Source: a virus
Taxonomy: Duplodnaviria; Caudoviricetes
Reading direction: 5' to 3' (one strand)
DNA: 63,048 bases
Virus record (IMG/VR): IMGVR_UViG_3300032322_002946
Span: 1 to 63,048 of that record
Part shown: positions 20,933-62,921 of the stretch, in pieces
Numbering within the stretch: the stretch's first letter is position 1
Layout: every line of letters starts with the position of its first letter
Notes under the pieces: generated by a model
The model's input: only the letters and a program-made list of their open reading frames with translations
The model's database searches: none
What the model was told of the DNA's origin: nothing
Made by a program: the position numbers and the translations under genes

Positions 20933-21889
20933 TTAGAAATCATCATCTAAATTATCAAAATCGATAGCTTTGTCTGATACTTTTTGATATTCAGAAACTC
21001 TTTTCTCAAAGAAATTTGTTTTTCCCTGTAGTGAAATCATATCCATAAAGTCAAATGGATTTTCAACACCATAGACTTTTTGACAACCCAACTGATTTAG
21101 CCAAAAGTCAGCAACATACTCAATGTATTGTTGCATTAACTTTGAGTTCATGCCAATTAAAGATACTGGTAATGAATCTGTCACAAACTCCTTTTCAATC
21201 TCAACAGCTTCACAGATAATTTCTTTGATTCTTTCTTCACTAACTTTATTTTGGATATACCTATTATGTAATAAGGTAGCAAATTGACAGTGTAATCCCT
21301 CATCTCTTGAAATCAACTCATTTGAAAATGATAATCCAGGCATCAATCCTCTTTTCTTAAGCCAGAAAATAGAACAAAATGAACCAGAGAAAAATATACC
21401 TTCAACTGCTGCAAAAGCAATCAGTCTTTCAGCAAAAATACTAGAATCTATCCATTTAAGTGCCCACTCTGCTTTTCTTTTTACAGATGGTACTGTTTGA
21501 ATTGCGTTGAAAAGATGGTCTCTTTCTTTTGAATCTTTAATGTAAGTATCAATAAGAAGAGAATAAGTTTCTGAGTGTATGTTCTCAATAGCAATCTGAA
21601 ATCCATAAAAACATTTAGCCTCTGGATATTGAACTTCTTTTAGAAAGTTTTCGGCTAAGTTTTCATTTACGATTCCATCTGAAGCAGCAAAGAAAGCCAA
21701 CACGTTTTTAATATAGTGTTTCTCATCTGCATTTAACTTCTCATTCCAATCTGTTAAATCTTGTGCCAAATCGATTTCTTCGGCAGTCCAAAAAGAGTGT
21801 TCGGCTGTTTTGTACATTTCCCATATATCGTTATATTTTAGCGGGAAAAGAACAAATCTGTTTGGATTTTCTGTTAGTATATGTTCCAT
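20933..21889 (-). CDS. nrdB: Ribonucleotide reductase class Ia beta subunit
   Basis: [46 protein letters not shown]. Confidence 0.95.
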
Positions 21890-22255: not shown

Positions 22256-22675
22256 ATGAAGTTACTCTATGATAATAATCTCTACGATTGTAGCTGGAAG
22301 TCAAAAATGAAAACAGACTACTGGTATAATATGGCTATTGTCAAAGTGAAAGCCAGAATGCCTATCCAAAAATATAAAAAAATAATATTAGATATCAGAA
22401 TCAAAAACGAAGAGATTCAAAGTGGACTGAAACGGGGAACTGAAAATGAATTTGACTTTAATATTCTTATTAATGATGGTGAGTTTATTGATTGGTTAAG
22501 TCGTGATTCAGAGAGTGTAGAACTTTGGGAATTTAATTCTTTTTTAGAAAGAATATCTTACACATCTCAGTTCAATGATGGAACAGTAGTGGTAAATTTT
22601 GACTTACTTATAAAAGAACAAAGTTTATGTGATAAGTCACAACTAAGAGAAGTGTTATTAAATCAATTAGTTTAA
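22256..22675 (+). CDS. Hypothetical protein with C-terminal tag motif
   Basis: Ends LREVLLNQLV. Confidence 0.55.
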   Translation: MKLLYDNNLYDCSWKSKMKTDYWYNMAIVKVKARMPIQKYKKIILDIRIKNEEIQSGLKRGTENEFDFNILINDGEFIDWLSRDSESVELWEFNSFLERISYTSQFNDGTVVVNFDLLIKEQSLCDKSQLREVLLNQLV

Positions 22676-22678
22676 AAC

Positions 22679-22758
22679 GAAAAAAGGGAGTAGCGAATTC
22701 CCTTTTTTCTATAGCCACCCGATTGGGGCGAAACTATAACGGGTCCTAAGCCGTTTTT
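22679..22758 (-). ncRNA. Three-hairpin structured RNA with loops complementary to 23S rRNA H69-H71 (possibly Flavo-1-like)
   Basis: Minus strand AACGG-CUUAGGAC-CCGUU / central stem / AAAAAAGGGA-AUUCGCUAC-UCCCUUUUUU; plus strand reads AACTATAACG(G)GTCCTAAG and GTAGCGAATTCC, matching 23S positions 1912-1929 and 1930-1942 (E. coli numbering). Confidence 0.7.
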
Positions 22759-23304
22759 TTAAAATTTATTTCCCTTTGATAGGTTATCCTTAGCCCACAA
22801 TGGTTGTAAGTTTGATAGAGCATTTATTGTACTAACTTTTGTGTTATCATCAAATTTTGATATTGGTTTCTTGTGGTCAATGTGCCATTTACCGTAATTG
22901 TCCCAACACATTCCATCTTTAAACTGAATCTCTATTCTCTGTTTAAGTTTAATCACATCATATCCTAAAAGTTTGAAGGTACTTGTATGTTTTTTTTGAC
23001 CCATAAGACACCTTCTAACCATGTCTCTTAAAACCATTCCGAGTTTAATTTTAAAGTTTTCTGTTCTTTTTCTCTTTCTTACCTCTTTATACCTTAACTC
23101 ATAATTCCTATTATTCGTTTTATATGACTCGGTATTTCTATATTTCTTCTTTCTCTCTAAAACTTTTTCTTTATTTTTCTCATAAAAGTCTTTTTGAATA
23201 TCAGAGCAACATTTCTTACAATATATCGCATAACCTGTTTTAGAATTAGAATTTTTATAGAATTTTGAACTATCCTTATCTGAAAGACATTTTTTACAAA
23301 TCAT
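22759..23304 (-). CDS. HNH homing endonuclease-like protein
   Basis: N-term CxxC..CKKC, WHIDHKKP..NLQPLWAKDNLSKGNK. Confidence 0.85.
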   Translation of the reverse strand: MICKKCLSDKDSSKFYKNSNSKTGYAIYCKKCCSDIQKDFYEKNKEKVLERKKKYRNTESYKTNNRNYELRYKEVRKRKRTENFKIKLGMVLRDMVRRCLMGQKKHTSTFKLLGYDVIKLKQRIEIQFKDGMCWDNYGKWHIDHKKPISKFDDNTKVSTINALSNLQPLWAKDNLSKGNKF

Positions 23305-23382
23305 AGCTTATATATTAAAACTTTTATCTATCACTACAATAAAATAAATGTAAATTAATGTCAAACTTAAATTAAAAAACAA

Positions 23383-23706: not shown

Positions 23707-24783
23707 ATGGTTTCAGATTTTAATGACTTATTGATTACCCCTGCCAAAACGTCTTCTATACGTTCCCGTAGTGAGATTAATCCACACTATACTAAAGATG
23801 GTAATGATATGTTACCAATTATTGTGTCTCCTATGGACACCGTAATTTCTACAACAAATTGGAAAATGTTTATCAACAATAAATTACCGATTTGTTTTCC
23901 AAGAGGTATCAAACCAGAAGACTTCCCAGTTTCTGAACTAGTTTATCTAAATTGGTATAGTGATTCTATATTTTTTTCTTACTCTTTAGAAGAAACATCT
24001 GATCTTATTAAGATGTTGAAAAGTAAAAGAGAAGAGGATAAATACTTTGACTTCAAATACAATATACTAATTGATATTGCTAATGGACACATGCAACACT
24101 TAGTAGATTTGGTTAAAGAGTTAAGAGAATTTACAGGTGTTAAAATTATGGTTGGTAACATCGCTAACCCTAAAAGTTACAAAGTCTTATCAAAAGCAGG
24201 TGCTGACTACATCAGAGTTGGTATTGGATTTGGCGGTGGTTGTTTGACCGCTATGAATACTGGCGTTGGATATTCAATGGCTCAATTAGTCTTAGAATGT
24301 GCAGAAGAAAAAGAAAAATTAGATGCTTATGATTATCCAACTGCTAAAATTGTAGCTGATGGTGGATTTAGAGAATACTCTGATATTATTAAAGCCTTAG
24401 CTTTGGGAGCAGATTATGTAATGTTAGGGTCAATGTTGAATAAGTGTTTAGAATCCGCAGGTGATTGTTATGTATTAGGTTTGAAAATTCCACAACCATT
24501 AGCTGAGTTTCTTTACAAGAAAGGATTTCGAATAGAAAAGAAATTTAGAGGAATGTCAACTAAAGAAGTTCAAAGAAAATGGGGTAAATCAAACTTAAAA
24601 ACTTCAGAAGGTGTAGTCAGACTAAGAACAGTAAAATACACCCTGAGTGGTTGGACAGAAAATTTTGTAGATTATCTGAAGTCTGCTATGAGTTATACAG
24701 ATAGTAAAAACTTAGAACAATTTATTGGACAGGTCAAATGGACCCAAATTTCACAAAACTCTTTTCAAAGATTTAACAAATAA
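23707..24783 (+). CDS. IMP dehydrogenase / GMP reductase family protein
   Basis: SPMDTV, IDIANGH, VGIGFGGGCLT, ADGG, ALALGADYVMLG, FRGMS. Confidence 0.85.
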   Translation: MVSDFNDLLITPAKTSSIRSRSEINPHYTKDGNDMLPIIVSPMDTVISTTNWKMFINNKLPICFPRGIKPEDFPVSELVYLNWYSDSIFFSYSLEETSDLIKMLKSKREEDKYFDFKYNILIDIANGHMQHLVDLVKELREFTGVKIMVGNIANPKSYKVLSKAGADYIRVGIGFGGGCLTAMNTGVGYSMAQLVLECAEEKEKLDAYDYPTAKIVADGGFREYSDIIKALALGADYVMLGSMLNKCLESAGDCYVLGLKIPQPLAEFLYKKGFRIEKKFRGMSTKEVQRKWGKSNLKTSEGVVRLRTVKYTLSGWTENFVDYLKSAMSYTDSKNLEQFIGQVKWTQISQNSFQRFNK

Positions 24784-34380: not shown

Positions 34381-35703
34381 GTGAAAATATTTAACTACAT
34401 AGAATTCATCAAAGAAAATACTTCATCTGTGAATAAAATACCTACTTATAGTGAAGCCGTCGAAATGTGCTCTGGAGATGAAGCACCATTCTACGAATCA
34501 AAATACGAAGTAGAGGGATATCCTGTGTCTGTTTTTAACTATCGACTTGCTCAGTATAAAGATTTTGATACGCCTGTCCCATCAAAACCAGAACTAAAAG
34601 GTTTTGAAATGAGAGGTCTAACTTTTGTATTTAATAAAGATGGAACTCTTTACAATAGGTATGTACTTCTTGAAAAGTTCTTTAACTTAAATCAAGTTCC
34701 TACTTCAATGTACTCTGTTGTTAAAGACTATAAAATCAGATATGTTAATAACAAAGAAGATGGTTCAATCGCAACATTTATAAAACTACCTAATAATAAA
34801 ATAGTTGGTAAATCAAAAATGGGATTTGATAATGAACAAGCAACTGGTATTAACAAAATCTATAAGACTAATAAGGATGTTAAATCTTTTGTTGATTGGT
34901 GTTTAAATAACGATATCGTTCCTATATTTGAATATGTCGCTCCACATAATAGAATTGTTTTAAGATACTCAAAAGAAGAACTAATACTTCTTCGTTTAAG
35001 AGATAATAAGACTGGAAAGCACATTGATATTAAAGAACATTTAGACAAAATTGGTTCAATCAAAATTGCCCCATTTGAGGATGATGATACATTAGATGAT
35101 TTGATTGAAAAATCTAAATCAGAAGTGGATAAAGAAGGATGGATTGTTCAATTTGATAATGATCATATGCTTAAAATAAAGACAGATTGGTATTTTCAAA
35201 GACACGGTCTTTTGACTAATGATATTTACGGAGAGCATATTATAATTGGATATATCTTAGATGATTTAATTGATGATATCTTAGGTCAAATACCAGAAGA
35301 TGAAGTAGAGGCTCATTTAAGAATCAATAAAATAATCTCAATTGTCAAAAGAACATTAAGAGAAAAGGTAGATGAAATCAATTCGGCGTACAAAGAATAT
35401 CTACAATCTGGTTTATCTAAAAAGGAGTATGCAATAAAGAATAGAACAAATCCTACTTTTCCATTTGTAATGAATTTGGAAAAAGCAGAAAACTTAAAAA
35501 AGATGTCAAGAGAAGAAATACTTGATATCTATGATGATATTGAATCTTATGAAAGATCTCTTAAAAGATGTGAACCATTTGATATGGCTAAAGAGTGGCT
35601 AAGAGATAAAACTAAAAGACTAGAAATAGCTAGAGAATGGTTGAAGAGTAAAGACTCAACACTTTTCTTTCAAGAGCCAGAAGAGTCAGAAGACGATAAC
35701 TAA
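34381..35703 (+). CDS. RNA ligase, T4 Rnl1-like, with leader motif
   Basis: EMRGL, EKFFNLN, KEDGS, FEY, EGWIV, KIKTDWY; starts MKIFNYIEFIKEN (GTG). Confidence 0.85.
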   Translation: MKIFNYIEFIKENTSSVNKIPTYSEAVEMCSGDEAPFYESKYEVEGYPVSVFNYRLAQYKDFDTPVPSKPELKGFEMRGLTFVFNKDGTLYNRYVLLEKFFNLNQVPTSMYSVVKDYKIRYVNNKEDGSIATFIKLPNNKIVGKSKMGFDNEQATGINKIYKTNKDVKSFVDWCLNNDIVPIFEYVAPHNRIVLRYSKEELILLRLRDNKTGKHIDIKEHLDKIGSIKIAPFEDDDTLDDLIEKSKSEVDKEGWIVQFDNDHMLKIKTDWYFQRHGLLTNDIYGEHIIIGYILDDLIDDILGQIPEDEVEAHLRINKIISIVKRTLREKVDEINSAYKEYLQSGLSKKEYAIKNRTNPTFPFVMNLEKAENLKKMSREEILDIYDDIESYERSLKRCEPFDMAKEWLRDKTKRLEIAREWLKSKDSTLFFQEPEESEDDN

Positions 35704-38905: not shown

Positions 38906-40789
38906 ATGAGTACAAAAAACACAATTATTGGAATTGACCTCGGAACCACAAATTCATGCGTCGCTGTGGTTGAAGGAGGAGAACCAGTTGTAATCTCTAA
39001 CTCTGAGGGTAAAAGAACGACACCATCAGTTGTAGGATTTACAGACAAAGACAGAAAAATTGGAGATCCAGCTAAGCGTCAGGCTGTAACTAATCCAAAA
39101 AAGACAATCTATTCTATTAAGAGATTTATTGGTAAAGATTTTTCTGTTTGTAAAGATGAGGTAAAGAGAGTACCTTATGCAGTTGAAAAAAGTGGAAATA
39201 ATGTACCTGGAGTTAGAATTGACGACAGACTATATTCACCACAAGAAATCTCAGCAATGATTCTGCAAAAAATGAAGAAAACAGCTGAAGATTATTTAGG
39301 TTATGAAGTAAACAGAGCGGTTATTACCGTTCCGGCTTATTTCGGTGATGCTGAAAGAACAGCGACTATTGAGGCTGGTGAGATTGCTGGACTTAAAGTT
39401 GAAAGAATCATCAACGAACCTACTGCAGCAGCTTTAGCTTATGGTCTCGATAAAAAGAACACTGACGCTAAAATCCTAGTATTCGATTGTGGTGGTGGGA
39501 CACATGATGTATCAGTATTAGAAATTGGTGATGGTGTATTTGAAGTTAAATCAACTGATGGTGATACTCACTTAGGTGGTGATGATTTTGACAACGCTAT
39601 TATCAATTGGATGGTAGAAGAGTTTAAGTCTGAAAACAATATGGACTTATCAAAAGATCCAATGGCCCTACAACGTCTCAAAGAGGCAGCTGAAAAAGCT
39701 AAGATTGAATTATCTTCTACTTCACAAAGTGAAATTAATCTTCCTTATATAACGGCTCAGGATGGATTACCACTTCACTTCGTGAAACAACTTACTAGAG
39801 CTAAATTTGACCAATTGACTGCTAGTTTAGTTGAAAGAACAATCGCATGTGCCAAAAGTGCTCTCAAGTCAGCTGGTTTGAAGCCATCTGATATCGATGA
39901 AGTAATTCTCGTTGGTGGTTCGACCAGAATTCCATCAGTACAAGAGGCTTTAGAAAAGTTTATCGGTAAGAAACCAAACAAATCAGTAAATCCAGATGAA
40001 GTTGTTGCTTTAGGTGCTTCTATTCAAGGAGCTGTTTTGACTGGTGGAATCACTGATGTTCTTCTTTTAGATGTTACACCACTTTCATTAGGTATCGAAA
40101 CTATGGGAAGTGTAATGACTAAACTAATTGAAGCTAATACAACTATTCCTACTCGTAAGTCAGAAACATTCTCAACAGCCGCTGATAATCAACCATCTGT
40201 AGAAATTCATGTTCTACAAGGTGAAAGACCAATGGCTAAAGATAACCGTTCGTTAGGTCGCTTCCATTTAGATGGAATCATGCCAGCACCGAGAGGTATT
40301 CCTCAAATTGAAGTAACTTTTGATATCGATGCGAATGGGGTTCTGTCTGTATCTGCAAAAGATAAGGCATCTGGTAAAGAAAATCAAATTCGAATAGAAG
40401 GTGGTTCTCAATTGACCAAAGAGGAAATCGAAAGAATGAAAGCTGAGGCTGAGGCAAATGCAGAGGCTGATGCTAAAGAAAGAGAAATGGTTGATAAGTT
40501 AAACATGGCTGATAGTTTGATTTTCCAAACTGAAAAACAGATTAAAGAATTTTCAGATAAACTAACAGAAGACGACAAATCAACCTTAAACTCTAACTTA
40601 GATGAACTGAAATCAGCTCATTCTGAGAAAGACTTAGAGAAAATTGATTTGACATCTCAAAAGTTAAATGAGAGTTGGCAGACAATTTCAACCAGACTTT
40701 ATCAACAACAATCAGAAACTGGTGAATCTAACCAGTCTGAGAGTCAAAATGATGAAGTTCAAGACGCAGACTTCGAAGAAGTAAAATAA
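38906..40789 (+). CDS. dnaK: Chaperone DnaK (Hsp70)
   Basis: [45 protein letters not shown]. Confidence 0.98.
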
Positions 40790-40836: not shown

Positions 40837-42078
40837 TTAATCATTATCATATGTGTCGTAATCTCCTCCTGTTTCCTTTAGATATTTCCCAGTGCCTTTC
40901 GCGTAATTATAAAGCCACGCATCATAATCGTTTAGATAACACATTGTATCTAAGTATGGATAAAATTCAAAATCACCTTCATCTATTTCAACCCTTAAAG
41001 AAGGATCACTGACTACATTAGAACCATTTGTTAATGGTGTCTCTGTGTCCATAGTTTGGTCTCTTTTCCACCACCAGTTATTTTTTTCAGCAAATTGTTT
41101 AAATAACTCTACATCAGAATCGTGTGTAGTATAGATTCTATCCATAAATTGAATTTTGTTGCCATTTAAGAAAGCATCCCAAAGTAAAGCTCTACCCTTT
41201 ATTTTATCAGATGTGTATTTACCATCTGTTAATTTTCCTTCATCATCGTAAAGAATCACAAGTGATACTTGTGGATTTTCTGTATAGATATTGAAAGTTT
41301 CACTTTCCATTTTAGCCATACAAGAGTTATTTAATGTTCCACCACCTCGTTTATAGTTTGTACTATCATACCATTTAGCAATATCTCCACCTTTAACAAC
41401 ATCAAATTGTTTTAAGGCGTCAGCTGCGAAATCATAAGTGGCTTTCCATTTATTTGTAAAATCTTCGATGTCTTTATCTGTAAAAGTTATTTTAGCAGAT
41501 TGTAAAATAGCTCTTACTAATCTTCCGATTTTCATTGGATTTCTAGAAGATGTCCATACTTCTTTTGGTTCTACTTCATAAGGCTCAATTGCTGCCGTAT
41601 TTATTACAGCAAGCCTTGGACTATCTGTTCCATATTCTTCAAAAAGAGCATATTTATTTGTTGATACTGGACTTTGTGCTTCTTTTAATACTACACCAAT
41701 CGTATCAACCTCAGGTGCCCAATTTTGTCTTCCATTTTTATCATAACCTAAAAGTGCAAATATTCTATCATTCTTATCACTATGTGTTAAATATCTTCCA
41801 TTATTGATGACTCTGTGAGTTTCAACTTTTTTACTTCTAAATTCTTGAGCCTTAGCGTCCATAATAAAGCTAACTGAATCTTTTTGGTCAGTTATATCAA
41901 TGTAATTATATCTTGTATCGATATCATTTCCTGATATTTTCAATAATTCTAAGGCCAATCTATCTTCTCTCATTTTAGACAAGATATTATTAAACTTATT
42001 CGAAAATACAATTTTAGACTCATTTAATAATTGTATTAAAATATTCTCGTTCAAAAAATCATTATACCTACGTATCAT
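40837..42078 (-). CDS. Conserved-looking phage protein with leader motif
   Basis: Likely start MIRRYNDFLNE 5 nt after TTAATATATA; LNNSCM, GRALLW, FMDRIY, PYLDT blocks. Confidence 0.65.
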   Translation of the reverse strand: MIRRYNDFLNENILIQLLNESKIVFSNKFNNILSKMREDRLALELLKISGNDIDTRYNYIDITDQKDSVSFIMDAKAQEFRSKKVETHRVINNGRYLTHSDKNDRIFALLGYDKNGRQNWAPEVDTIGVVLKEAQSPVSTNKYALFEEYGTDSPRLAVINTAAIEPYEVEPKEVWTSSRNPMKIGRLVRAILQSAKITFTDKDIEDFTNKWKATYDFAADALKQFDVVKGGDIAKWYDSTNYKRGGGTLNNSCMAKMESETFNIYTENPQVSLVILYDDEGKLTDGKYTSDKIKGRALLWDAFLNGNKIQFMDRIYTTHDSDVELFKQFAEKNNWWWKRDQTMDTETPLTNGSNVVSDPSLRVEIDEGDFEFYPYLDTMCYLNDYDAWLYNYAKGTGKYLKETGGDYDTYDND

Positions 42079-42145
42079 AAATGTATATATTAAATAAATT
42101 TTAGACTTTATGTTTTTAATCATAAAAAAGTAAAAATATATATCT

Positions 42146-44603: not shown

Positions 44604-44629
44604 AATGTATATATTAAATTCGATTTCTA

Positions 44630-44813
44630 TTATAAGTAAATTCTTTCAGAATTAATTGTTAAACCTAAGAATTCTTTTGCCTCTTCGTCAAACTCTTTTG
44701 GATCCTCTGTTGTAAGATATTTTATTGTTCCATTTTTAGAACAATTGATGTCAGATATTTTTAGATATTCAATATTTGCCAGTAAAATCACTAAAATTGT
44801 TAAGATAATTCAT
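44630..44813 (-). pseudogene. Frameshifted remnant, C-terminus resembling glutamate racemase
   Basis: ATG at 44813 behind TTAATATATA stops after 14 codons; other frame reads GTIKYLTTEDPKEFDEEAKEFLGLTI. Confidence 0.4.
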
Positions 44814-44856
44814 TAAAATTATATATTAATAAAAAATTTTTATTATATTTGTCAAT

Positions 44857-53445: not shown

Positions 53446-53634
53446 CTATTTTAGAATTTCTTCAATTTTTTTCTCTCTATCTAATTGGAATGTATCAATT
53501 TGAAACATTGGACATTCATCAATTCTCGAAGGTCCTAAGTATTTACCCCATACTGATTTTCCTTCATATTTATAAGCATTACTATCAGGAGTATTTGTAT
53601 GTGGATGAAAATTTAAATCAGTTACAATTTTCAT
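53446..53634 (-). CDS. Small protein with C-terminal tag motif
   Basis: Ends DREKKIEEILK. Confidence 0.55.
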   Translation of the reverse strand: MKIVTDLNFHPHTNTPDSNAYKYEGKSVWGKYLGPSRIDECPMFQIDTFQLDREKKIEEILK

Positions 53635-53935: not shown

Positions 53936-55780
53936 TTATTTTAACAATTCTGTTTTTCTTAAATCTGAATTTTTTCCAAACCAAATATCTAAGGAGTTAG
54001 ATGATACATCATCTTTAGTAATCAAAGTAAGTTTAGGACTATTAATAATATCTTGATATTCATCATCAACAAGAGCCGCTAAACCTTTTTTATATTTAAT
54101 CTCCCATTGCTTTAAGTCTGTCTTAGATTCCCATTGGTTGTATTCGTCTTGTGAATAAAAAAGTACCTTCTTCTTTGTTTTAGTTCTTGGAATAGCAACT
54201 ACAATTGGTGTCTCTACTTTGTATATCATCCTTCTATCAAACACATCTGGCCAATATTTGTAAAAGAAATTTATTAAAAGACCAGCAATTGAATTTCCAT
54301 CAACGTCAGCATCAACATAGAAAAGTATTCTACCATATCTTAAATCTTTTACATCTATTTTTTGTCCTAGTTTTAGACCAATAGAAGCCATAAGATTTAC
54401 AACCTCAGTGTTCTGAACTAATTTTTGATTAGTCATCTCAGAGACATTTACAAATTTACCTTTCAAGGCGAAAGCACCCATTGTTTGTGGATCTCTGTAT
54501 TTTCTAAAAGCTGAAATTGCAGAGTCTCCCTCAAAAAGACCAATCGAATATTTCCATCTCTCCTTACCTTTAGCATCAATTAACTTTTCAACTTTAATCT
54601 TATCAAGTTTTTTATTAAGTTCTCTTTGTAGTTTAGAGTCTTCAGCTGTTTTCTTTTGTTGGATCCAGTCTAAAATTGAATTGACGATCTCAGACTTAAG
54701 TATTTGACCAATAAGTTTTTGTGATACCTCAAATGTTGAACCAAAATCTTTAATCTCTGTTATCAGTTTTTCTTTAGTTTGTGATGAGAAACTAGGATTT
54801 ATAACCGTTGCATCTAAAAATAAAAACATGTGATTCTTCAACTCTGATGGTTTCACGTCAACTTTGTGTTTCTTCATAAAGAACTCTCTCATTGAAGAAA
54901 TGATTTGACCCATAACATAATCGACGTGTGTCCCACCATCATATGTGTCTGTGGTATTAGCAAAACTGACTTGTTGAAATCCGTTTTCAGAAAGAGCAAC
55001 TCCTATTGACCAGGTTTTATTCTTATTTGATTCATAGAAATAATCTTTAGTATAGAATTTTATGTAATCTTCGAATGAGTTGAAATTTATTTTAGTCCCA
55101 TTGAATGTGAATTTTATTTCTGGATTTGTTCCGGCAAGATCATAAACTCGTTTTTCAATCATTTTGAAGTGATCGTCATCTATTTTATCTATACCAAATT
55201 GTGATAAATCCGGTTTATACTTTATCTCTGTATGATTTAATTTTGATTTTTTAACAACTGGATTACTTCTATCTCTCATATTATTTGAGAAAGTCTGTAT
55301 GAAGTGATTTTTACCATCACAAGTTGAAATGGTGAATTCTGTTGAAAAAACATTGGTTAATTTAGCACCTAATCCATTTAACCCAGCAACTGTTCTTTCA
55401 TCACTATCATCATAGTTACTACCGGACATTAAATTACCAAAGATAACTTCTGGAACATATTGATCGTGCTCTTTATGAATCACCACTGGAATCCCTCCGT
55501 TATCCTTTACTGAGATTATATTATTATCAACATCCACTGAAATATCAATCTTATTTAGATTTTTATTTCTTTTATGTTCATCAACTGAATTTGTAACTAC
55601 TTCATCAAATATTTTAACAAATGATGGTATGAATGTGATTTCTCTTTGAACAACTTGTTCATTTTCTACTACATTTTTGATAGATGTGTTCGGTTTATTA
55701 GACCCTACATATGTTTGTGGTCTTAAAAGTATATGTGTTATTTGGTCTAAAACTTTATATTTATCTTCAATTTTTTTCAC
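53936..55780 (-). CDS. Type IIA topoisomerase ATPase/TOPRIM subunit (T4 gp39+gp60-like)
   Basis: HILLRP.TYVGS, EVVTNSVD, DNGGIP, GLNGLGAK, EGDSA, DADVDG, YKKGL. Confidence 0.93.
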   Translation of the reverse strand: MKKIEDKYKVLDQITHILLRPQTYVGSNKPNTSIKNVVENEQVVQREITFIPSFVKIFDEVVTNSVDEHKRNKNLNKIDISVDVDNNIISVKDNGGIPVVIHKEHDQYVPEVIFGNLMSGSNYDDSDERTVAGLNGLGAKLTNVFSTEFTISTCDGKNHFIQTFSNNMRDRSNPVVKKSKLNHTEIKYKPDLSQFGIDKIDDDHFKMIEKRVYDLAGTNPEIKFTFNGTKINFNSFEDYIKFYTKDYFYESNKNKTWSIGVALSENGFQQVSFANTTDTYDGGTHVDYVMGQIISSMREFFMKKHKVDVKPSELKNHMFLFLDATVINPSFSSQTKEKLITEIKDFGSTFEVSQKLIGQILKSEIVNSILDWIQQKKTAEDSKLQRELNKKLDKIKVEKLIDAKGKERWKYSIGLFEGDSAISAFRKYRDPQTMGAFALKGKFVNVSEMTNQKLVQNTEVVNLMASIGLKLGQKIDVKDLRYGRILFYVDADVDGNSIAGLLINFFYKYWPDVFDRRMIYKVETPIVVAIPRTKTKKKVLFYSQDEYNQWESKTDLKQWEIKYKKGLAALVDDEYQDIINSPKLTLITKDDVSSNSLDIWFGKNSDLRKTELLK

Positions 55781-59363: not shown

Positions 59364-59396
59364 AAACAAAGTTTGTCTTTTCTCATATATATGTCT

Positions 59397-60740
59397 ATGA
59401 TGAAAGAAACTTCAATTACAAACTTCCTATCAAAAGAGTATAAAGAATTCGCTATGTATTCAATTGAAGGTAGAGCTATACCTTCTGTTATTGATGGATT
59501 CAAACCTACTCAAAGAAAAATAATTCACATATCTGGTCAAATTTGGAAATCAGGAAACGAAAAAACAAAAAAGGTATTCCAGTTAGCCGGTGTTGTTGCT
59601 GACCAGGCTTACTATCACCACGGAAACGCATCACTTGAAAATGCCATCATCACAATGGCTCAGAAATTTAAGAATAACGCGCCTCTTTTAGAAGAGGAGG
59701 GTCAGTTTGGTTCAATCAGAAGTCCTCAGGCTGGCGCACCTAGATATATTGGAACTAAACTAAACGAGAACTTTAAGTTACTTTATAAAGACTCAGAACT
59801 TTTAGAATTCAAAGAAGAAGAAGGTGAGCAAATAGAGCCTAGATTTTTTCTACCTATAATTCCAACCGTGTTAATTAATGGATCATCCGGTATAGCTGTT
59901 GGATTTGCTTCAAATATTCTAAATAGAGATGTTAAAAGTATTATTGAGTGTTGTCAGAAGATTTTGACTGGTAAAAAAATATCTGAAGTAAAACCATCTC
60001 TTTATGGATTTACAGGTGAGTATATTCAAGATTTAGAAAATAATAAAAAGTGGTTTATCCGTGGTAGATTTACCAGAACAAACACAAGTACGATAAAAAT
60101 ATCTGAATTACCACCATCATTAACATACGAAAAATATGAAGAAATTCTTGATAAGTTAGTAGATGATAAACTTATAGTTTCATATGATGACAATTGTAAA
60201 GACAATATTGATTATACAATTAAATTTACAAGAGCAGATTTAGAAAAGTTAGATGATGATAAATTACTAAAATTATTAAAACTCGAAGAGACATCAACTG
60301 AAATATATTCTACTCTCGATGAGTTTGGAAAATTGAAGATATTTGAATCTACATCTGAAATTATAGAATACTTTGTCAATTTCAGATTGACATATTATCA
60401 CAAAAGAAAACAATTTTTACTTGATAAGTTAAACAGAGAATTAAAAATCTTATCTAACAAAGGTAGATTTATTAAAGCAATTATTGATGGTAAATTAAAA
60501 GTCAATAATGTTGCTAAAGCTCAAATAATTGAAGGAATAGAAGCTATGGGACTAGATAAGATTGATGATTCATATGATTACTTATTAAGAATGCCTATTT
60601 ACTCATTAACTAAAGAAATGTATGATAAATTAAAAGAAGACTTTAAGTTAAAGAAAGAAGAAATTGTGAAGTTAGAAGCAACTGATCCTAAGGATATGTA
60701 CTTAGATGATTTAAACGAACTGAAAAAGAAATTTAAGTAA
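59397..60740 (+). CDS. Type IIA topoisomerase breakage-reunion subunit (T4 gp52/GyrA-like)
   Basis: RAIPS..DGFKPTQRK, YHHG, GQFGS, APRYI, NG..GIAVG. Confidence 0.93.
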   Translation: MMKETSITNFLSKEYKEFAMYSIEGRAIPSVIDGFKPTQRKIIHISGQIWKSGNEKTKKVFQLAGVVADQAYYHHGNASLENAIITMAQKFKNNAPLLEEEGQFGSIRSPQAGAPRYIGTKLNENFKLLYKDSELLEFKEEEGEQIEPRFFLPIIPTVLINGSSGIAVGFASNILNRDVKSIIECCQKILTGKKISEVKPSLYGFTGEYIQDLENNKKWFIRGRFTRTNTSTIKISELPPSLTYEKYEEILDKLVDDKLIVSYDDNCKDNIDYTIKFTRADLEKLDDDKLLKLLKLEETSTEIYSTLDEFGKLKIFESTSEIIEYFVNFRLTYYHKRKQFLLDKLNRELKILSNKGRFIKAIIDGKLKVNNVAKAQIIEGIEAMGLDKIDDSYDYLLRMPIYSLTKEMYDKLKEDFKLKKEEIVKLEATDPKDMYLDDLNELKKKFK

Positions 60741-61820: not shown

Positions 61821-62921
61821 ATGATAATAATGAGACAAGAACTATTTAATCTTATTGAAGGTAAATCTCCTGGATCAAGACCACTATATCTTGTTATCCG
61901 TGGTTCTCATGCATATGGAACTAATGTCCCAACTTCAGATATTGACTATGCTGGTGTTTTTATTCAATCACTTAGTGACATTTTAGGAAATTCTTACAAA
62001 GAACAAATCAATGATGATAATAATGATATTGTGATCTATGAAATTCGAAGATTTTTAGAACTATTACAAAGTAATAATCCAACCGTATTAGAACTCTTAA
62101 ATACCCCAGAAGATTGTGTTATTTATAAACATCCTATCTTTGATGAAGTTCTAAATAACAGAGATAAATTCATAACTAAAATCTGTGCTAAGTCTTTTGG
62201 TGGTTATGCTAAACAACAAATCTCAAAAGCAAAAGGCCAAGATAAAAAACAAAACTGGGAAAAGGATAGAGTTAGTAGAAAAACCCCAATCGATTTTTGT
62301 TATATTCACAAAGGTGAGTACTCTTACAACTTAAAAGAGTATTTAGAAAAACATAATATACCTCAACAACTTTGTGGTTTGTCAAAATCTCCTCATGGTA
62401 AAGATATCTATGCTCTTTTCTTTAGTGAAGAGTTTGTAAAATTTAAAGGTATTGAGTTTGAAAATTCTAACGATATTCGACTTAGTTCTATTCCAAAAGA
62501 TTTACCTGAGAGTTGTTTTATAGGTCATATCTCTTATAATAAAGATGGTTATTCACAACATTGTAAAGACTATTTATCTTATCAAACTTGGTTACAAGAA
62601 AGAAATGAGTCTCGTTGGGTTGATGTAAAATCTCACGGTCAAAAGATTGATGGTAAAAATATGATGCATTGTGTTAGATTAATGCAGATGGCTCGTGAAA
62701 TTGCCGAAGGTAAAGGAATTAATGTTCGTAGATTAAATGCTGATGAATTAATTTCAATCAGAAAAGGTGAAGTTGATTTACAAACTTTAATTAATAATGT
62801 TGAGTCAGAAATTGTAGAAATCGATAATCTATTCGATGCTTCTAACTTACCAGACAAAGTTGAACCTAACTTAATAAATGAGATTCTAATTTTTATCAGA
62901 AAAAATATTTATAATATATAA
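61821..62921 (+). CDS. Pol-beta-like nucleotidyltransferase (RlaP/Nuc-transf-like)
   Basis: RGSHAYG...SDIDYAGV, NPTVLELL, KNMMHCVRL, L.IRKG. Confidence 0.8.
   Translation: MIIMRQELFNLIEGKSPGSRPLYLVIRGSHAYGTNVPTSDIDYAGVFIQSLSDILGNSYKEQINDDNNDIVIYEIRRFLELLQSNNPTVLELLNTPEDCVIYKHPIFDEVLNNRDKFITKICAKSFGGYAKQQISKAKGQDKKQNWEKDRVSRKTPIDFCYIHKGEYSYNLKEYLEKHNIPQQLCGLSKSPHGKDIYALFFSEEFVKFKGIEFENSNDIRLSSIPKDLPESCFIGHISYNKDGYSQHCKDYLSYQTWLQERNESRWVDVKSHGQKIDGKNMMHCVRLMQMAREIAEGKGINVRRLNADELISIRKGEVDLQTLINNVESEIVEIDNLFDASNLPDKVEPNLINEILIFIRKNIYNI

What the first reader, a model, noticed from the sequence alone, without database searches (positions are those of the whole stretch)
22679..22758. Phage RNA whose two loops are antisense to contiguous 23S rRNA helix 69-71 sequence
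Seen: starting immediately after the HNH stop codon, the minus-strand transcript folds into three hairpins: AACGG-[CUUAGGAC]-CCGUU, a central stem, and AAAAAAGGGA-[AUUCGCUAC]-UCCCUUUUUU, which doubles as a terminator. On the plus strand, 22732-22750 reads AACTATAACG(G)GTCCTAAG and 22690-22701 reads GTAGCGAATTCC. Established: highly conserved 23S rRNA reads A1912-ACUAUAACGGUCCUAAG-1929 / G1930-UAGCGAAAUUCC (H69-H71, intersubunit bridge B2a). This is also the I-CeuI site, a group I intron hotspot and next to the H70 site cut by some MazF toxins. So the two loops are complementary to the two halves of one continuous rRNA stretch, in permuted order, meeting at 1929/1930. Inference: a bipartite guide or splint RNA that binds the host 50S to block or remodel subunit joining, shield it from ribotoxins, or hold a cut rRNA for re-ligation by the phage RNA ligase. 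From memory it resembles the functionally unassigned Flavo-1 motif; that is unverified.
Basis: partly seen in the sequence, partly recalled or inferred. Interest (0 to 1): 0.92.

Follow-up and report, generated by a model that had tools for sequence, protein, structure and literature searches.

The report
Phage RNA antisense to 23S rRNA
This large uncultured phage carries one copy of a small folded RNA, shared by well over a hundred other uncultured phages and absent from the RNA catalogue searched, whose exposed unchanging bases are the exact complement of helix 69-70 of bacterial 23S ribosomal RNA, so the phage probably grips host large-subunit rRNA with it, although no experiment has tested this.

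Summary
Window 22679-22755 (minus strand) folds into three hairpins. Their exposed bases complement E. coli 23S rRNA 1909-1937.

It is one member of a large phage RNA family: 167 distinct elements in 164 fetched loci. No Rfam 15 family matches, Flavo-1 included.

The minus strand is the functional one:
- G.U pairs outnumber A.C 15 to 1 in the terminator stem.
- A U-run follows the stem in 24 of 64 loci, against 1 of 64 on the other strand.
- An oriented upstream motif points the same way.

The terminator stem covaries strongly. Three exposed blocks hardly change. These are UUAGGACC, GUU and UCGCUAC, which complement 23S 1921-1928, 1912-1914 and 1930-1936. Most variants of the first block remain wobble-compatible with the rRNA.

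The HNH gene is a mobile insertion between the RNA and its promoter-like motif.

Pairing with host 23S is inferred, not shown, and its consequence is unknown.

This scan has already noted the same family on other DNA.

The parts
22679..22709 (-). Hairpin 1 (P3): an 11-bp stem, GAAAAAAGGGA / UCCCUUUUUUC, with a 9-nt loop. It is terminator-like and probably bidirectional, since it also ends the plus-strand ORF 22256..22675.
   Evidence: Fold. Family covariation: 63 distinct sequences, 91.2% of cells paired against 54.1% in shuffles, 10 of 11 pairs with compensatory changes. A U-run follows the stem on this strand in 24 of 64 loci, against 1 of 64 on the other strand.
22690..22698 (-). Y block: loop AUUCGCUAC. 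Its core UCGCUAC complements 23S G1930-A1936, and the U before it complements A1937.
   Evidence: When only the X block was fixed in the scan, 25 of the 31 sequences listed had UCGCUAC, 4 had UCGCUAU, 1 had UCGCUC and 1 was doubtful. Predicted unpaired probability 0.91.
22710..22738 (-). Central hairpin (P2). Its 5' strand UAUAGUU(U)CG carries the nearly invariant GUU at 22734-22732 and is antisense to the H69 loop and 5' strand (23S 1909-1918).
   Evidence: Fold. GUU is at least 90% conserved in the 136-sequence MAFFT alignment. Positions facing 1912-1914 are pairable in 89-96% of 166 elements. The shape of this hairpin varies between relatives.
22738..22755 (-). Hairpin 3 (the 5' hairpin): AACGG-CUUAGGAC-CCGUU.
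   Evidence: The stem is kept with changed letters in relatives: ACCG/CGGU in L001 and AGGG/CCCU in L004.
22742..22749 (-). X block: UUAGGACC, complement of 23S G1921-A1928. The preceding C (22750) faces G1929.
   Evidence: With only the Y block fixed, 84 of 103 distinct elements have it exact. Of the 17 one-mismatch variants, 14 are G.U-compatible with the rRNA. The preceding base is C or U, both able to pair with G1929, in 155 of 166.
22759..23304 (-). HNH-like endonuclease ORF (181 aa). It is a mobile insertion between the promoter-like motif and the RNA, so here the RNA is the 3' UTR of this gene.
   Evidence: Pfam HNH is weak: E = 0.0047, 17.5 bits, below the 21.4-bit cut-off. The ORF is absent in LR745206.1 and in most relatives. 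L003 keeps only a truncated remnant. Metagenome contigs join 22712 or 22717 to 23303 with 42-49 other letters between.
23309..23318 (-). TTAATATATA, an oriented promoter-like motif (possibly a late promoter).
   Evidence: It occurs 13 times in the window, always on the minus strand, against 1.46 expected. Ten copies lie 4-22 nt upstream of minus-strand ORF starts. In 16 family loci the motif, or a close variant, precedes the RNA with no ORF between.
22256..22675 (+). Convergent 139-aa ORF of unknown function that ends 3 nt before hairpin 1. It is not needed for the element.
   Evidence: No Pfam family. It is absent in L008-L011, where nrdB lies there instead.

Best explanation
The element is a small non-coding RNA module of about 80 nt, read from the minus strand. 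It belongs to a widespread, undescribed family of phage RNAs. In relatives it is either a stand-alone gene (promoter-like motif, RNA, intrinsic terminator) or the last part of an mRNA just after a stop codon. In this window an HNH homing-endonuclease gene has landed between the motif and the RNA, so the RNA is now that gene's 3' UTR.

A variable scaffold presents three short unchanging blocks in exposed positions:
- UUAGGACC, preceded by C or U;
- GUU, in or beside the loop of a hairpin that is the antisense image of helix 69;
- UCGCUAC, in the terminator loop.

Together these complement 23S rRNA 1912-1914 and 1920-1936, which is H69 and the unpaired H69-H70 junction.

The most likely mode of action (inferred) is base pairing in trans with host 23S rRNA where this region is free, that is, in free or still-assembling 50S subunits. 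This would proceed by loop-to-loop and single-strand contacts, as in classical antisense RNAs.

Shown here: the family, the strand, the covarying stem, the conserved exposed blocks and their complementarity.
Inferred: transcription, binding to rRNA, and any consequence of binding, such as hindering subunit joining or 50S maturation, or tethering 50S to phage transcripts.
For: 1. Family. Close relatives were found through the neighbouring 102-aa protein, so they were not selected on the RNA. All keep the loop letters while the stems change. A uniform detector then counted 167 distinct elements in 164 loci.

2. Strand. In 64 hairpin-1 stems, read on the RNA strand, G.U 15 against A.C-type 1, and a U-run follows the stem in 24 of 64 against 1 of 64. 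There are 34 wobble cells in the stem. In RNA orientation 70 of 85 loci have a same-strand ORF upstream and 59 of 85 one downstream. The oriented TTAATATATA motif agrees.

3. Structure. Hairpin 1 is 91.2% paired against 54.1% in shuffles (0 of 500 shuffles reach it). The covariation score is 0.966 against 0.209, and sliding the partner drops pairing to 43-54%.

4. Complementarity. E. coli 23S and the Rfam consensus give the target letters. The X and Y targets each occur once in 23S, at 1921 and 1930. L300 carries a perfect 21-nt antisense of 23S 1908-1928. BLAST of that element finds records annotated as 23S rRNA of Salmonella, Dickeya and Acinetobacter, and unannotated records filed under Listeria, Staphylococcus, Escherichia, Klebsiella and Paenibacillus phages, at 21 of 21 identity.

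5. Variation fits RNA-RNA pairing. With Y fixed, the X variants are UUAGGGCC x10, UUAGGAUC x3 and UUGGGACC x1, all wobble-compatible. Against these stand CUAGGACC x2 and UUAGGACA x1, both at the ends of the block. The Y variants UCGCUAU x4 and UCGCUGC x2 are wobble-compatible.

6. The blocks are exposed. Mean unpaired probability is 0.73 for X, 0.69 for GUU and 0.91 for Y, against 0.34 for the rest.

7. The target is mostly unpaired in Rfam's consensus structure at 1930-1934 and 1936-1944.

8. A review reports that a PNA aimed at H69 blocked translation and E. coli growth (Kulik et al. 2017, as cited in PMC12828698; one passage read).
Against: - No expression data exist: no RNA run holds the stretch.
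- No binding data of any kind exist.
- In mature 70S ribosomes H69 is a closed stem at the subunit interface (established knowledge), so only part of the ribosome pool could be reached.
- Duplex energies of the single blocks against whole 23S are within the range of shuffled oligos: -15.2 against a shuffle minimum of -18.4, and -12.8 against -15.7. The argument therefore rests on adjacency and conservation, not on energy.
- The commonest Y variant, UCGCUCC, puts C opposite U1931, a mismatch unless U1931 bulges. It occurs in 8 of 82 elements, mostly close relatives of the window.
- The base facing A1938 does not pair in 154 of 166 elements.
- The two-site binding is topologically a pseudoknot and was not modelled.
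- Most sets were gathered with patterns that fix one block, so conservation of each block is judged only from the set that fixed the other.
- Covariation of the anti-H69 hairpin could not be quantified, because RNAalifold on the MAFFT alignment found only hairpin 1.
- A benefit to the phage from binding ribosomes is not obvious.
Confidence: 0.5

Rival explanations
1. It is a 3'-end module: a terminator plus a stabilising structure. Its conserved loops would be bound by a conserved protein, or would serve transcript stability or processing. The likeness to antisense 23S would then be only a relic of its origin, for example a captured rDNA fragment, with no pairing to rRNA.
For: In 109 of 166 elements the module sits within 60 nt after the stop codon of a same-strand ORF of at least 60 codons. 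The upstream genes are unrelated to one another: HNH, fatty-acid desaturase, holin, SNase and unknowns. The last hairpin is terminator-like. There is no evidence of binding to rRNA.
Against: A relic should decay. Instead, the positions that stay fixed while the scaffolds change completely are exactly the ones that complement 23S 1912-1914 and 1920-1936. The block variants seen are mostly the transitions that keep G.U pairing with the rRNA. Ordinary terminators do not keep a 9-nt loop sequence across phage lineages. Class B members have no U-run at all, yet they keep both blocks.
Confidence: 0.25
2. The RNA pairs with 23S rRNA as in the main reading, but its purpose is repair or protection. It would hold or shield the H69-H70 region against a host ribonuclease, working with the phage's RNA-repair enzymes.
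For: The window encodes a T4 Rnl1-type RNA ligase (34381..35703, PF09511, E = 1.8e-18) and an RlaP RNA-repair-pathway protein (61821..62921, PF10127, E = 2.4e-20). The two blocks meet exactly at G1929/G1930.
Against: The ligase lies 11.7 kb away, and no linkage was seen in the roughly 10-kb family loci. The guide strand is itself broken at 1929/1930, so it cannot bridge a nick there as a continuous splint would. The stoichiometry against tens of thousands of ribosomes is demanding.
Confidence: 0.07
3. The functional strand is the plus strand, giving an RNA that mimics 23S H69-H70 in sense orientation. It would act as a decoy for an rRNA-binding enzyme, toxin or ribosomal protein.
For: Both flanking genes of the HNH-less relatives of this window are on the plus strand. 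The plus strand folds nearly as well. Hairpin 3 followed by a T-run scores as terminator-like on the plus strand.
Against: G.U against A.C asymmetry is 15 to 1 in favour of the minus strand, and the U-run asymmetry is 24 of 64 against 1 of 64. Across the family the flanking genes run with the minus-like orientation. The oriented upstream motif agrees. The T-run after hairpin 3 is not conserved. RF02541 finds no rRNA-like fold in the window.
Confidence: 0.03
4. It is a DNA-level site: a homing-endonuclease target or recombination site that resembles the rDNA I-CeuI region, which would explain why an HNH gene sits beside it.
For: The HNH gene abuts the element. HNH-plus and HNH-minus alleles coexist, with breakpoints inside the element at 22712/22717. 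The same HNH family is found upstream of the element in L004 and L030.
Against: Compensatory changes and G.U pairs in the stems point to selection on an RNA fold. Only 3 of 85 loci have this HNH upstream. The rDNA-like sequence is split and permuted, so it is not a contiguous recognition site. A conserved RNA gene being used as a landing site by a homing endonuclease fits the main reading.
Confidence: 0.03

Closest known systems
Loop-presenting antisense RNAs of plasmids (CopA/CopT of R1, RNA I/RNA II of ColE1); from my own knowledge
   Same: The hairpins expose recognition bases in their loops. One hairpin is the antisense image of a target hairpin (anti-H69 against H69; perfect in L300). Contact would plausibly start loop to loop. 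Both loops contain a YUNR-like start (UUCG, CUUA); that motif is recalled, not tested.
   Different: Those RNAs are encoded opposite their target and are fully complementary to it. This one is encoded in trans, its target is a host rRNA, and only short blocks on a variable scaffold are complementary, with one block moved to the terminator loop.
Trans-acting and 3'-UTR-derived base-pairing sRNAs that share the mRNA's terminator (RybB/OmrA type; CpxQ, SroC type); from my own knowledge
   Same: Both have a short conserved unpaired seed near the 5' end and an intrinsic terminator at the 3' end. They occur either as stand-alone genes or as the end of an mRNA.
   Different: Those sRNAs target mRNAs. 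Here the complement is a universally conserved rRNA segment, there is a second conserved block in the terminator loop, and the family spans many phage lineages.
EBS2/EBS1 loops of group II introns pairing with IBS2-IBS1
   Same: Two separate loops pair with adjoining halves of one continuous target, in the same permuted order: the loop for the upstream half comes first.
   Different: There are no ribozyme domains and no reverse transcriptase, the element is only 60-90 nt, and no Rfam group II model matches. It is not a member.
Synthetic PNA oligomers against H69 (Kulik et al. 2017, known to me only through the passage in PMC12828698)
   Same: The target helix is the same. The review reports that such an oligomer blocked translation and E. 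coli growth, so the site can be reached by an antisense agent.
   Different: Those are man-made, short and unstructured. This is a natural folded RNA.
Ribosome-binding 3' translation elements of plant RNA viruses (for example the TCV T-shaped structure, or BTE with an 18S-complementary tract); from my own knowledge
   Same: Both are structured elements at the 3' end of viral transcripts, proposed or shown to contact ribosomal subunits or rRNA.
   Different: Those belong to eukaryotic RNA viruses and have different folds and different rRNA sites. No homology is implied.
Flavo-1 RNA motif (Rfam)
   Same: Both are small structured RNAs of unknown function linked to Bacteroidota.
   Different: No match to any Rfam model at the gathering score or at E <= 10 over 22500-22950. 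It is not a member.

Membership tests
Flavo-1 (and any other Rfam 15 family) | A match to the family's covariance model at its gathering score | tested here: not met
   0 matches in the whole window. Flavo-1 is not among the 12 chance-level matches at E <= 10 over 22500-22950. There were 0 matches in 12 family loci at gathering, and none on the elements at E <= 1 in 6 loci.
Intrinsic (Rho-independent) terminator | A stable stem-loop followed by a U-run on the transcribed strand | tested here: met
   In the window, an 11-bp stem is followed by UUUUUUCGUUUU, partly within the stem. In the family, at least 6 U in the 8 nt after the stem occur in 24 of 64 loci on this strand against 1 of 64 on the other. 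Class B members lack the U-run. The tool's own terminator scan missed hairpin 1 because it caps loops at 8 nt.
Trans-acting base-pairing sRNA | Its own promoter and terminator, giving a discrete short transcript | tested here: inconclusive
   A promoter-like motif lies directly upstream, with no ORF between, in 16 of 166 elements. In the window the HNH ORF lies between the motif and the RNA. No transcript data exist.
Trans-acting base-pairing sRNA | A conserved, unpaired seed complementary to a target | tested here: met
   X is exact in 84 of 103 elements when Y is fixed. Unpaired probability is 0.73 for X and 0.91 for Y against 0.34 elsewhere. The complement occurs once in 23S, at 1921 and 1930.
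Trans-acting base-pairing sRNA | Demonstrated pairing with the target and an effect on it | not testable with these tools
   This needs binding assays, footprinting or genetics.
Loop-presenting (kissing) antisense RNA | A stem-loop complementary to a stem-loop of the target | tested here: met
   Anti-H69 hairpin CCGU-UAUAGUU-ACGG in L300. Positions facing 1908-1920 are pairable in 60-96% of 166 elements (the alignment was optimised, so these figures are somewhat inflated). In the window the same letters lie partly within the stem of the central hairpin.
Loop-presenting (kissing) antisense RNA | Encoded on the strand opposite its target (cis-antisense) | tested here: not met
   The target sequence is host rRNA. 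The window holds no LSU rRNA.
Bacterial LSU rRNA fragment or mimic (RF02541) | A match to the LSU rRNA model in sense orientation | tested here: not met
   0 matches in the window's record, while 13 of the 14 control genomes matched. The strand tests favour the antisense strand.
Group II intron (EBS loops) | Ribozyme domains I-VI, with or without an intron-encoded protein | tested here: not met
   No Rfam intron model matches. The element is 60-89 nt long.

The most novel reading that the evidence does not exclude
Phages of many unrelated lineages carry a dedicated antisense RNA. Its three exposed blocks pair with helix 69 and the H69-H70 junction of host 23S rRNA, seizing free or nascent 50S subunits. 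The aim might be to halt new ribosome assembly, control subunit joining, or tether 50S to phage transcripts. This would be the first natural trans-acting anti-rRNA regulator in bacteria or their viruses. One speculative refinement: pairing at position 1915 would be blocked by the m3-pseudouridine made late in ribosome maturation (recalled knowledge), which would make the RNA selective for immature subunits.
Probability: 0.45. Interest if true: 0.95.

Novelty: new variant of a known kind. Interest (0 to 1): 0.85.

Why it matters
Helix 69 forms the central bridge between the ribosomal subunits and touches tRNAs, release factors and the recycling factor (established knowledge). No bacterial or phage RNA is known to me that acts by pairing with rRNA in trans, and the five literature searches that ran found none.

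If these RNAs do bind 23S rRNA, that would be a new layer of phage control over host translation or ribosome biogenesis. The family is widespread in environmental phages, including very large ones. It would also be a natural, evolution-tuned blueprint for antisense agents against a universally conserved ribosome site.

Even if the rRNA reading is wrong, this is a large, well-supported structured RNA family that is missing from Rfam.

Tried and rejected
- Rfam: nothing at the gathering score in the window or in 12 family loci. At relaxed thresholds there were only chance-level matches.
- tRNA/tmRNA scan: none.
- Related loci via the upstream 139-aa protein: none confirmed.
- BLAST of class B and class D members against GenBank phages: no match. 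A class C member gave only two chance hits at E = 2. No cultured phage carrying the element was identified. LR745206.1, an uncultured 634-kb phage, is the only GenBank record found.
- Bacterial genomes: 54 pattern hits. By eye only 6 have the hairpin (L140, L170, L176, L181, L182, L184), and all 6 are MAG contigs. The rest lie in coding sequence or lack the stem. I therefore dropped the idea of a chromosomal or prophage element.
- Sequencing runs: no RNA holder listed. The DNA contigs that were laid served only to show HNH-less alleles.
- Plus-strand mimic: rejected on the strand tests.
- The boxA-like look of the class B 5' end, read on the plus-like strand: rejected, because that segment covaries with the loop of a neighbouring hairpin. 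I judged this by eye on L018, L048 and L093.
- Pairing of the X and Y blocks with each other: only 3 complementary bases, by inspection.
- RNAalifold on the 136-sequence MAFFT alignment recovered only hairpin 1, so covariation of the other helices is not quantified. No covariance model was built.
- Single-block duplex energies are not better than those of shuffled oligos against whole 23S.
- A second TTAGGACC at 53531-53538 lies inside a small ORF and has no Y block: chance.
- In the X-fixed scan, 76 of 107 distinct segments had no Y-like letters. I treated them as chance hits without checking each one, so divergent Y blocks could have been missed.
- Literature: searches found no description. 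I saw only listings and abstracts, plus one passage of PMC12828698. Paper supplements were not consulted.
Full report
**What is there.** On the minus strand the minimum-energy fold is three adjacent hairpins:
- AACGG-CUUAGGAC-CCGUU;
- a central hairpin;
- an 11-bp stem with loop AUUCGCUAC, followed by U-rich sequence.

This fold scores -28.8 kcal/mol with z = -3.12. The plus strand folds almost as well, so the strand had to be settled by other means.

The window is an IMG/VR virus record that CheckV estimates at 13% complete, which implies a very large phage. It holds no tRNA and no Rfam family at the gathering score. At E <= 10 the region gives only chance-level matches, and Flavo-1 is not among them.

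**The rRNA likeness is real.** E. coli rrlH reads GGCCGTAACTATAACGGTCCTAAGGTAGCGAAATTCC at 1906-1942. The Rfam bacterial LSU consensus has the same letters, almost all upper case. Its consensus structure leaves 1930-1934 and 1936-1944 unpaired, next to the H69 hairpin at 1906-1924.

The window's minus strand is antisense to two adjoining parts of this stretch. The sequence 5'-CUUAGGACC(C)GUUAUAGUU(U)CG is antisense to 1909-1929, with one extra base and one mismatch. The terminator loop AUUCGCUAC is antisense to 1930-1937. GGTCCTAA and GTAGCGA each occur once in E. coli 23S, at 1921 and 1930.

**It is a family.** A blastn search found the same element in LR745206.1, a 634-kb uncultured phage. 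There the hairpin-1 stem letters are changed on both sides and the loop is identical.

Loci fetched through the neighbouring 102-aa protein were not selected on the RNA. They carry the element in all 11 loci, which give 10 different versions (L012 repeats L003; L013 and L014 are identical). The stems differ, and the loops read G(T/G)AGCGAAT and TCCTAA on the plus strand.

A uniform detector required the Y core in the loop of a stem of at least 6 bp, and an X block with at most 1 mismatch upstream. It counted 167 distinct elements in 164 loci, with a median length of 66 nt.

Architectures differ:
- the window's three-hairpin form;
- a minimal form (X, one hairpin, terminator);
- forms with an extra 5' hairpin;
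- a class B form without a U-run, whose 3' tail appears to pair with the loop of a middle hairpin. I judged this by eye from covarying letters in L018, L048 and L093.

None of 12 such loci matches Rfam at gathering. Six loci gave nothing on the elements at E <= 1. In one genome per species of bacteria and archaea, 54 pattern hits contained only 6 convincing copies, all on MAG contigs. The family therefore belongs to phages, not to host chromosomes.

**Strand.** In 64 hairpin-1 stems, read on the window's plus-like strand, I counted 1 G.T against 15 A.C or C.A. On the minus-like strand that is 15 G.U against 1. A U-run (at least 6 of 8) follows the stem in 24 of 64 loci on the minus-like strand, against 1 of 64 on the other.

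In RNA orientation, 70 of 85 loci have a same-strand ORF just upstream and 59 of 85 one downstream.

In the window, TTAATATATA occurs 13 times, always on the minus strand, against 1.46 expected. Ten copies lie 4-22 nt upstream of minus-strand ORF starts. The same motif or a close variant lies a few bases 5' of the RNA, with no ORF between, in 16 of 166 elements. This argues that the motif is a promoter rather than a translation signal.

My own early guess of a plus-strand mimic was wrong.

**Structure and conservation.** On 63 distinct sequences anchored at the loop, the 11 pairs of hairpin 1 are 91.2% paired, against 54.1% in shuffles (0 of 500 reach it). Ten of the 11 pairs show compensatory changes. 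The covariation score is 0.966 against 0.209, and sliding the partner by 1-3 columns drops pairing to 43-54%.

Against this changing scaffold three blocks stand still.
- With only Y fixed, X is exactly UUAGGACC in 84 of 103 elements, 17 have one mismatch, 1 has two, and 1 has no X block.
- With only X fixed, 31 sequences with Y-like letters were listed. Of these, 25 have UCGCUAC, 4 UCGCUAU, 1 UCGCUC and 1 is doubtful. The two bases 5' of the core vary. The other 76 of 107 segments from that scan had no such letters and were taken as chance hits without individual checks.
- In a plain MAFFT alignment of 136 elements, a GUU in the middle hairpin is also at least 90% conserved.

Mapped onto 23S, the bases facing 1920-1937 can pair in at least 92% of 166 elements. 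The base facing G1929 is C or U in 155 of 166. Those facing 1912-1914 can pair in 89-96%, and those facing the rest of H69 in 55-87%. There are two caveats: each block was fixed by a pattern in part of the set, and the alignment was optimised.

One member, L300, is a perfect 21-nt antisense of 1908-1928 and folds as the exact mirror image of H69. BLAST of that element finds records annotated as 23S rRNA of Salmonella, Dickeya and Acinetobacter, and unannotated records filed under Listeria, Staphylococcus, Escherichia, Klebsiella and Paenibacillus phages, at 21 of 21 identity.

The blocks are predicted to be exposed. Unpaired probability is 0.73 for X, 0.69 for GUU and 0.91 for Y, against 0.34 for the other positions.

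**Kind of variation.** Of the 17 one-mismatch X variants, 14 are A-to-G or C-to-U changes that would still pair with the rRNA through G.U: UUAGGGCC x10 on at least three different scaffolds, UUAGGAUC x3 and UUGGGACC x1. The other three sit at the ends of the block. Metagenome contigs related to this window show the same UUGGGACC-type change (loose ends).

This fits RNA-RNA pairing with a fixed partner. The number of independent events is small, however, and transitions are common anyway.

Against the reading, the commonest Y variant, UCGCUCC, places C opposite U1931. It occurs in 8 of 82 elements.

**Local history.** LR745206.1 and most close relatives lack the HNH gene. There the promoter-like motif directly precedes the RNA, and the next gene is the plus-strand 102-aa ORF. 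L003 keeps only a truncated HNH remnant.

Contigs of public metagenomes join window 22712 or 22717 to 23303, with 42-49 other letters in between. HNH-less alleles therefore exist, in which the 5' half of the RNA is a different version. This is what co-conversion by a homing endonuclease would leave.

The HNH assignment itself is weak in Pfam (E = 0.0047, below the cut-off). Neighbouring genes are ribonucleotide reductase small chain (20933..21889) and an IMPDH/GMP-reductase-family protein (23707..24783). Elsewhere the window encodes a T4 Rnl1-type RNA ligase and an RlaP RNA-repair protein, but nothing ties them to the RNA.

**Reading.** The best-supported account is a small phage RNA, or a transcript 3' end, that presents three conserved exposed blocks for pairing with H69 and the H69-H70 junction of host 23S rRNA.

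Its architecture is like that of classical loop-presenting antisense RNAs and of 3'-UTR-derived sRNAs. The order of the blocks resembles the EBS2/EBS1 arrangement of group II introns: the block for 1930-1936 lies 3' of the block for 1920-1929. It is a member of none of these.

A review reports that a PNA aimed at H69 blocks translation and E. coli growth (PMC12828698, passage read), so the site can be reached.

What the pairing would achieve is open. The candidates are anti-association, blocking late 50S assembly, tethering subunits to phage transcripts, or protection. I give about 0.5 to rRNA pairing as such. About 0.25 goes to a protein-bound or purely structural 3'-end module whose rRNA likeness is a relic. 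Small odds go to the repair-splint, sense-mimic and DNA-site readings.

**Limits.**
- No transcript or binding data exist: no RNA run holds the stretch.
- Single-block duplex energies are unremarkable.
- The two-site binding is pseudoknotted and was not modelled.
- Helices other than hairpin 1 were not tested statistically.
- Most sequence sets were gathered with patterns that fix one block.
- The five literature searches that ran found no description.

Earlier notes of this same scan describe the same family on other DNA, with the same reading. They are not independent evidence.

Noticed in passing
window, 13 sites: 12659, 18947, 20276, 23309, 25680, 32790, 38781, 42084, 44608, 44820, 46941, 52569, 61596 (all minus strand): TTAATATATA occurs 13 times against 1.46 expected, always on the minus strand. 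Ten copies lie 4-22 nt upstream of minus-strand ORF starts. With gaps of only 4 nt, the transcripts would be leaderless or nearly so. No such motif precedes the plus-strand genes, so these may belong to a different temporal class.
   Followed up: partly
window 44618-44829 (minus strand): One copy of the motif, at 44820-44829, is followed by about 200 nt without an ORF of 70 aa or more, before the next motif at 44608-44617. This may be a very small ORF or another non-coding transcript.
   Followed up: no
window 42084-42093 within ORF 40837..42123 (minus strand): The motif lies inside the 5' end of the listed ORF, so the real start codon is probably downstream of it.
   Followed up: no
window 22712-23303; runs X4, X6, X9: Metagenome contigs carry HNH-less alleles. 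The HNH gene and the 5' half of the RNA are replaced by 42-49 other letters, so the endonuclease cassette is polymorphic in nature and its breakpoint lies inside the RNA gene.
   Followed up: partly
L015, L018, L040, L047, L068, L081, L089 and other class B loci: This is a larger form of the family without a U-run. Its 3' tail (AAAGUGAGC and variants) appears to pair with the loop of a middle hairpin, forming a pseudoknot. It sits between a stop codon and a sigma-70-like promoter of the next gene. I judged the covariation by eye only.
   Followed up: partly
L212 (6681-6743 and 7464-7528); L131 (1559-1583 and 2068-2092): Some contigs hold two copies about 0.5-0.8 kb apart. The second L131 hairpin has the Y loop but no recognisable X block upstream.
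   Followed up: no
window 34381..35703, 61821..62921, 38906..40789, 53936..55780, 59373..60740: The window encodes a T4 Rnl1-type RNA ligase, an RlaP RNA-repair-pathway protein, a full-length Hsp70/DnaK homologue (E = 3.6e-251), and both subunits of a type II topoisomerase.
   Followed up: no
window 20933..21889 and 23707..24783; L008-L011: In this lineage the RNA gene sits between ribonucleotide reductase small chain and an IMPDH/GMP-reductase-family gene. In L008-L011 it lies directly beside the nrdB start. Earlier notes report the element at the end of nrd transcripts in other phages.
   Followed up: no
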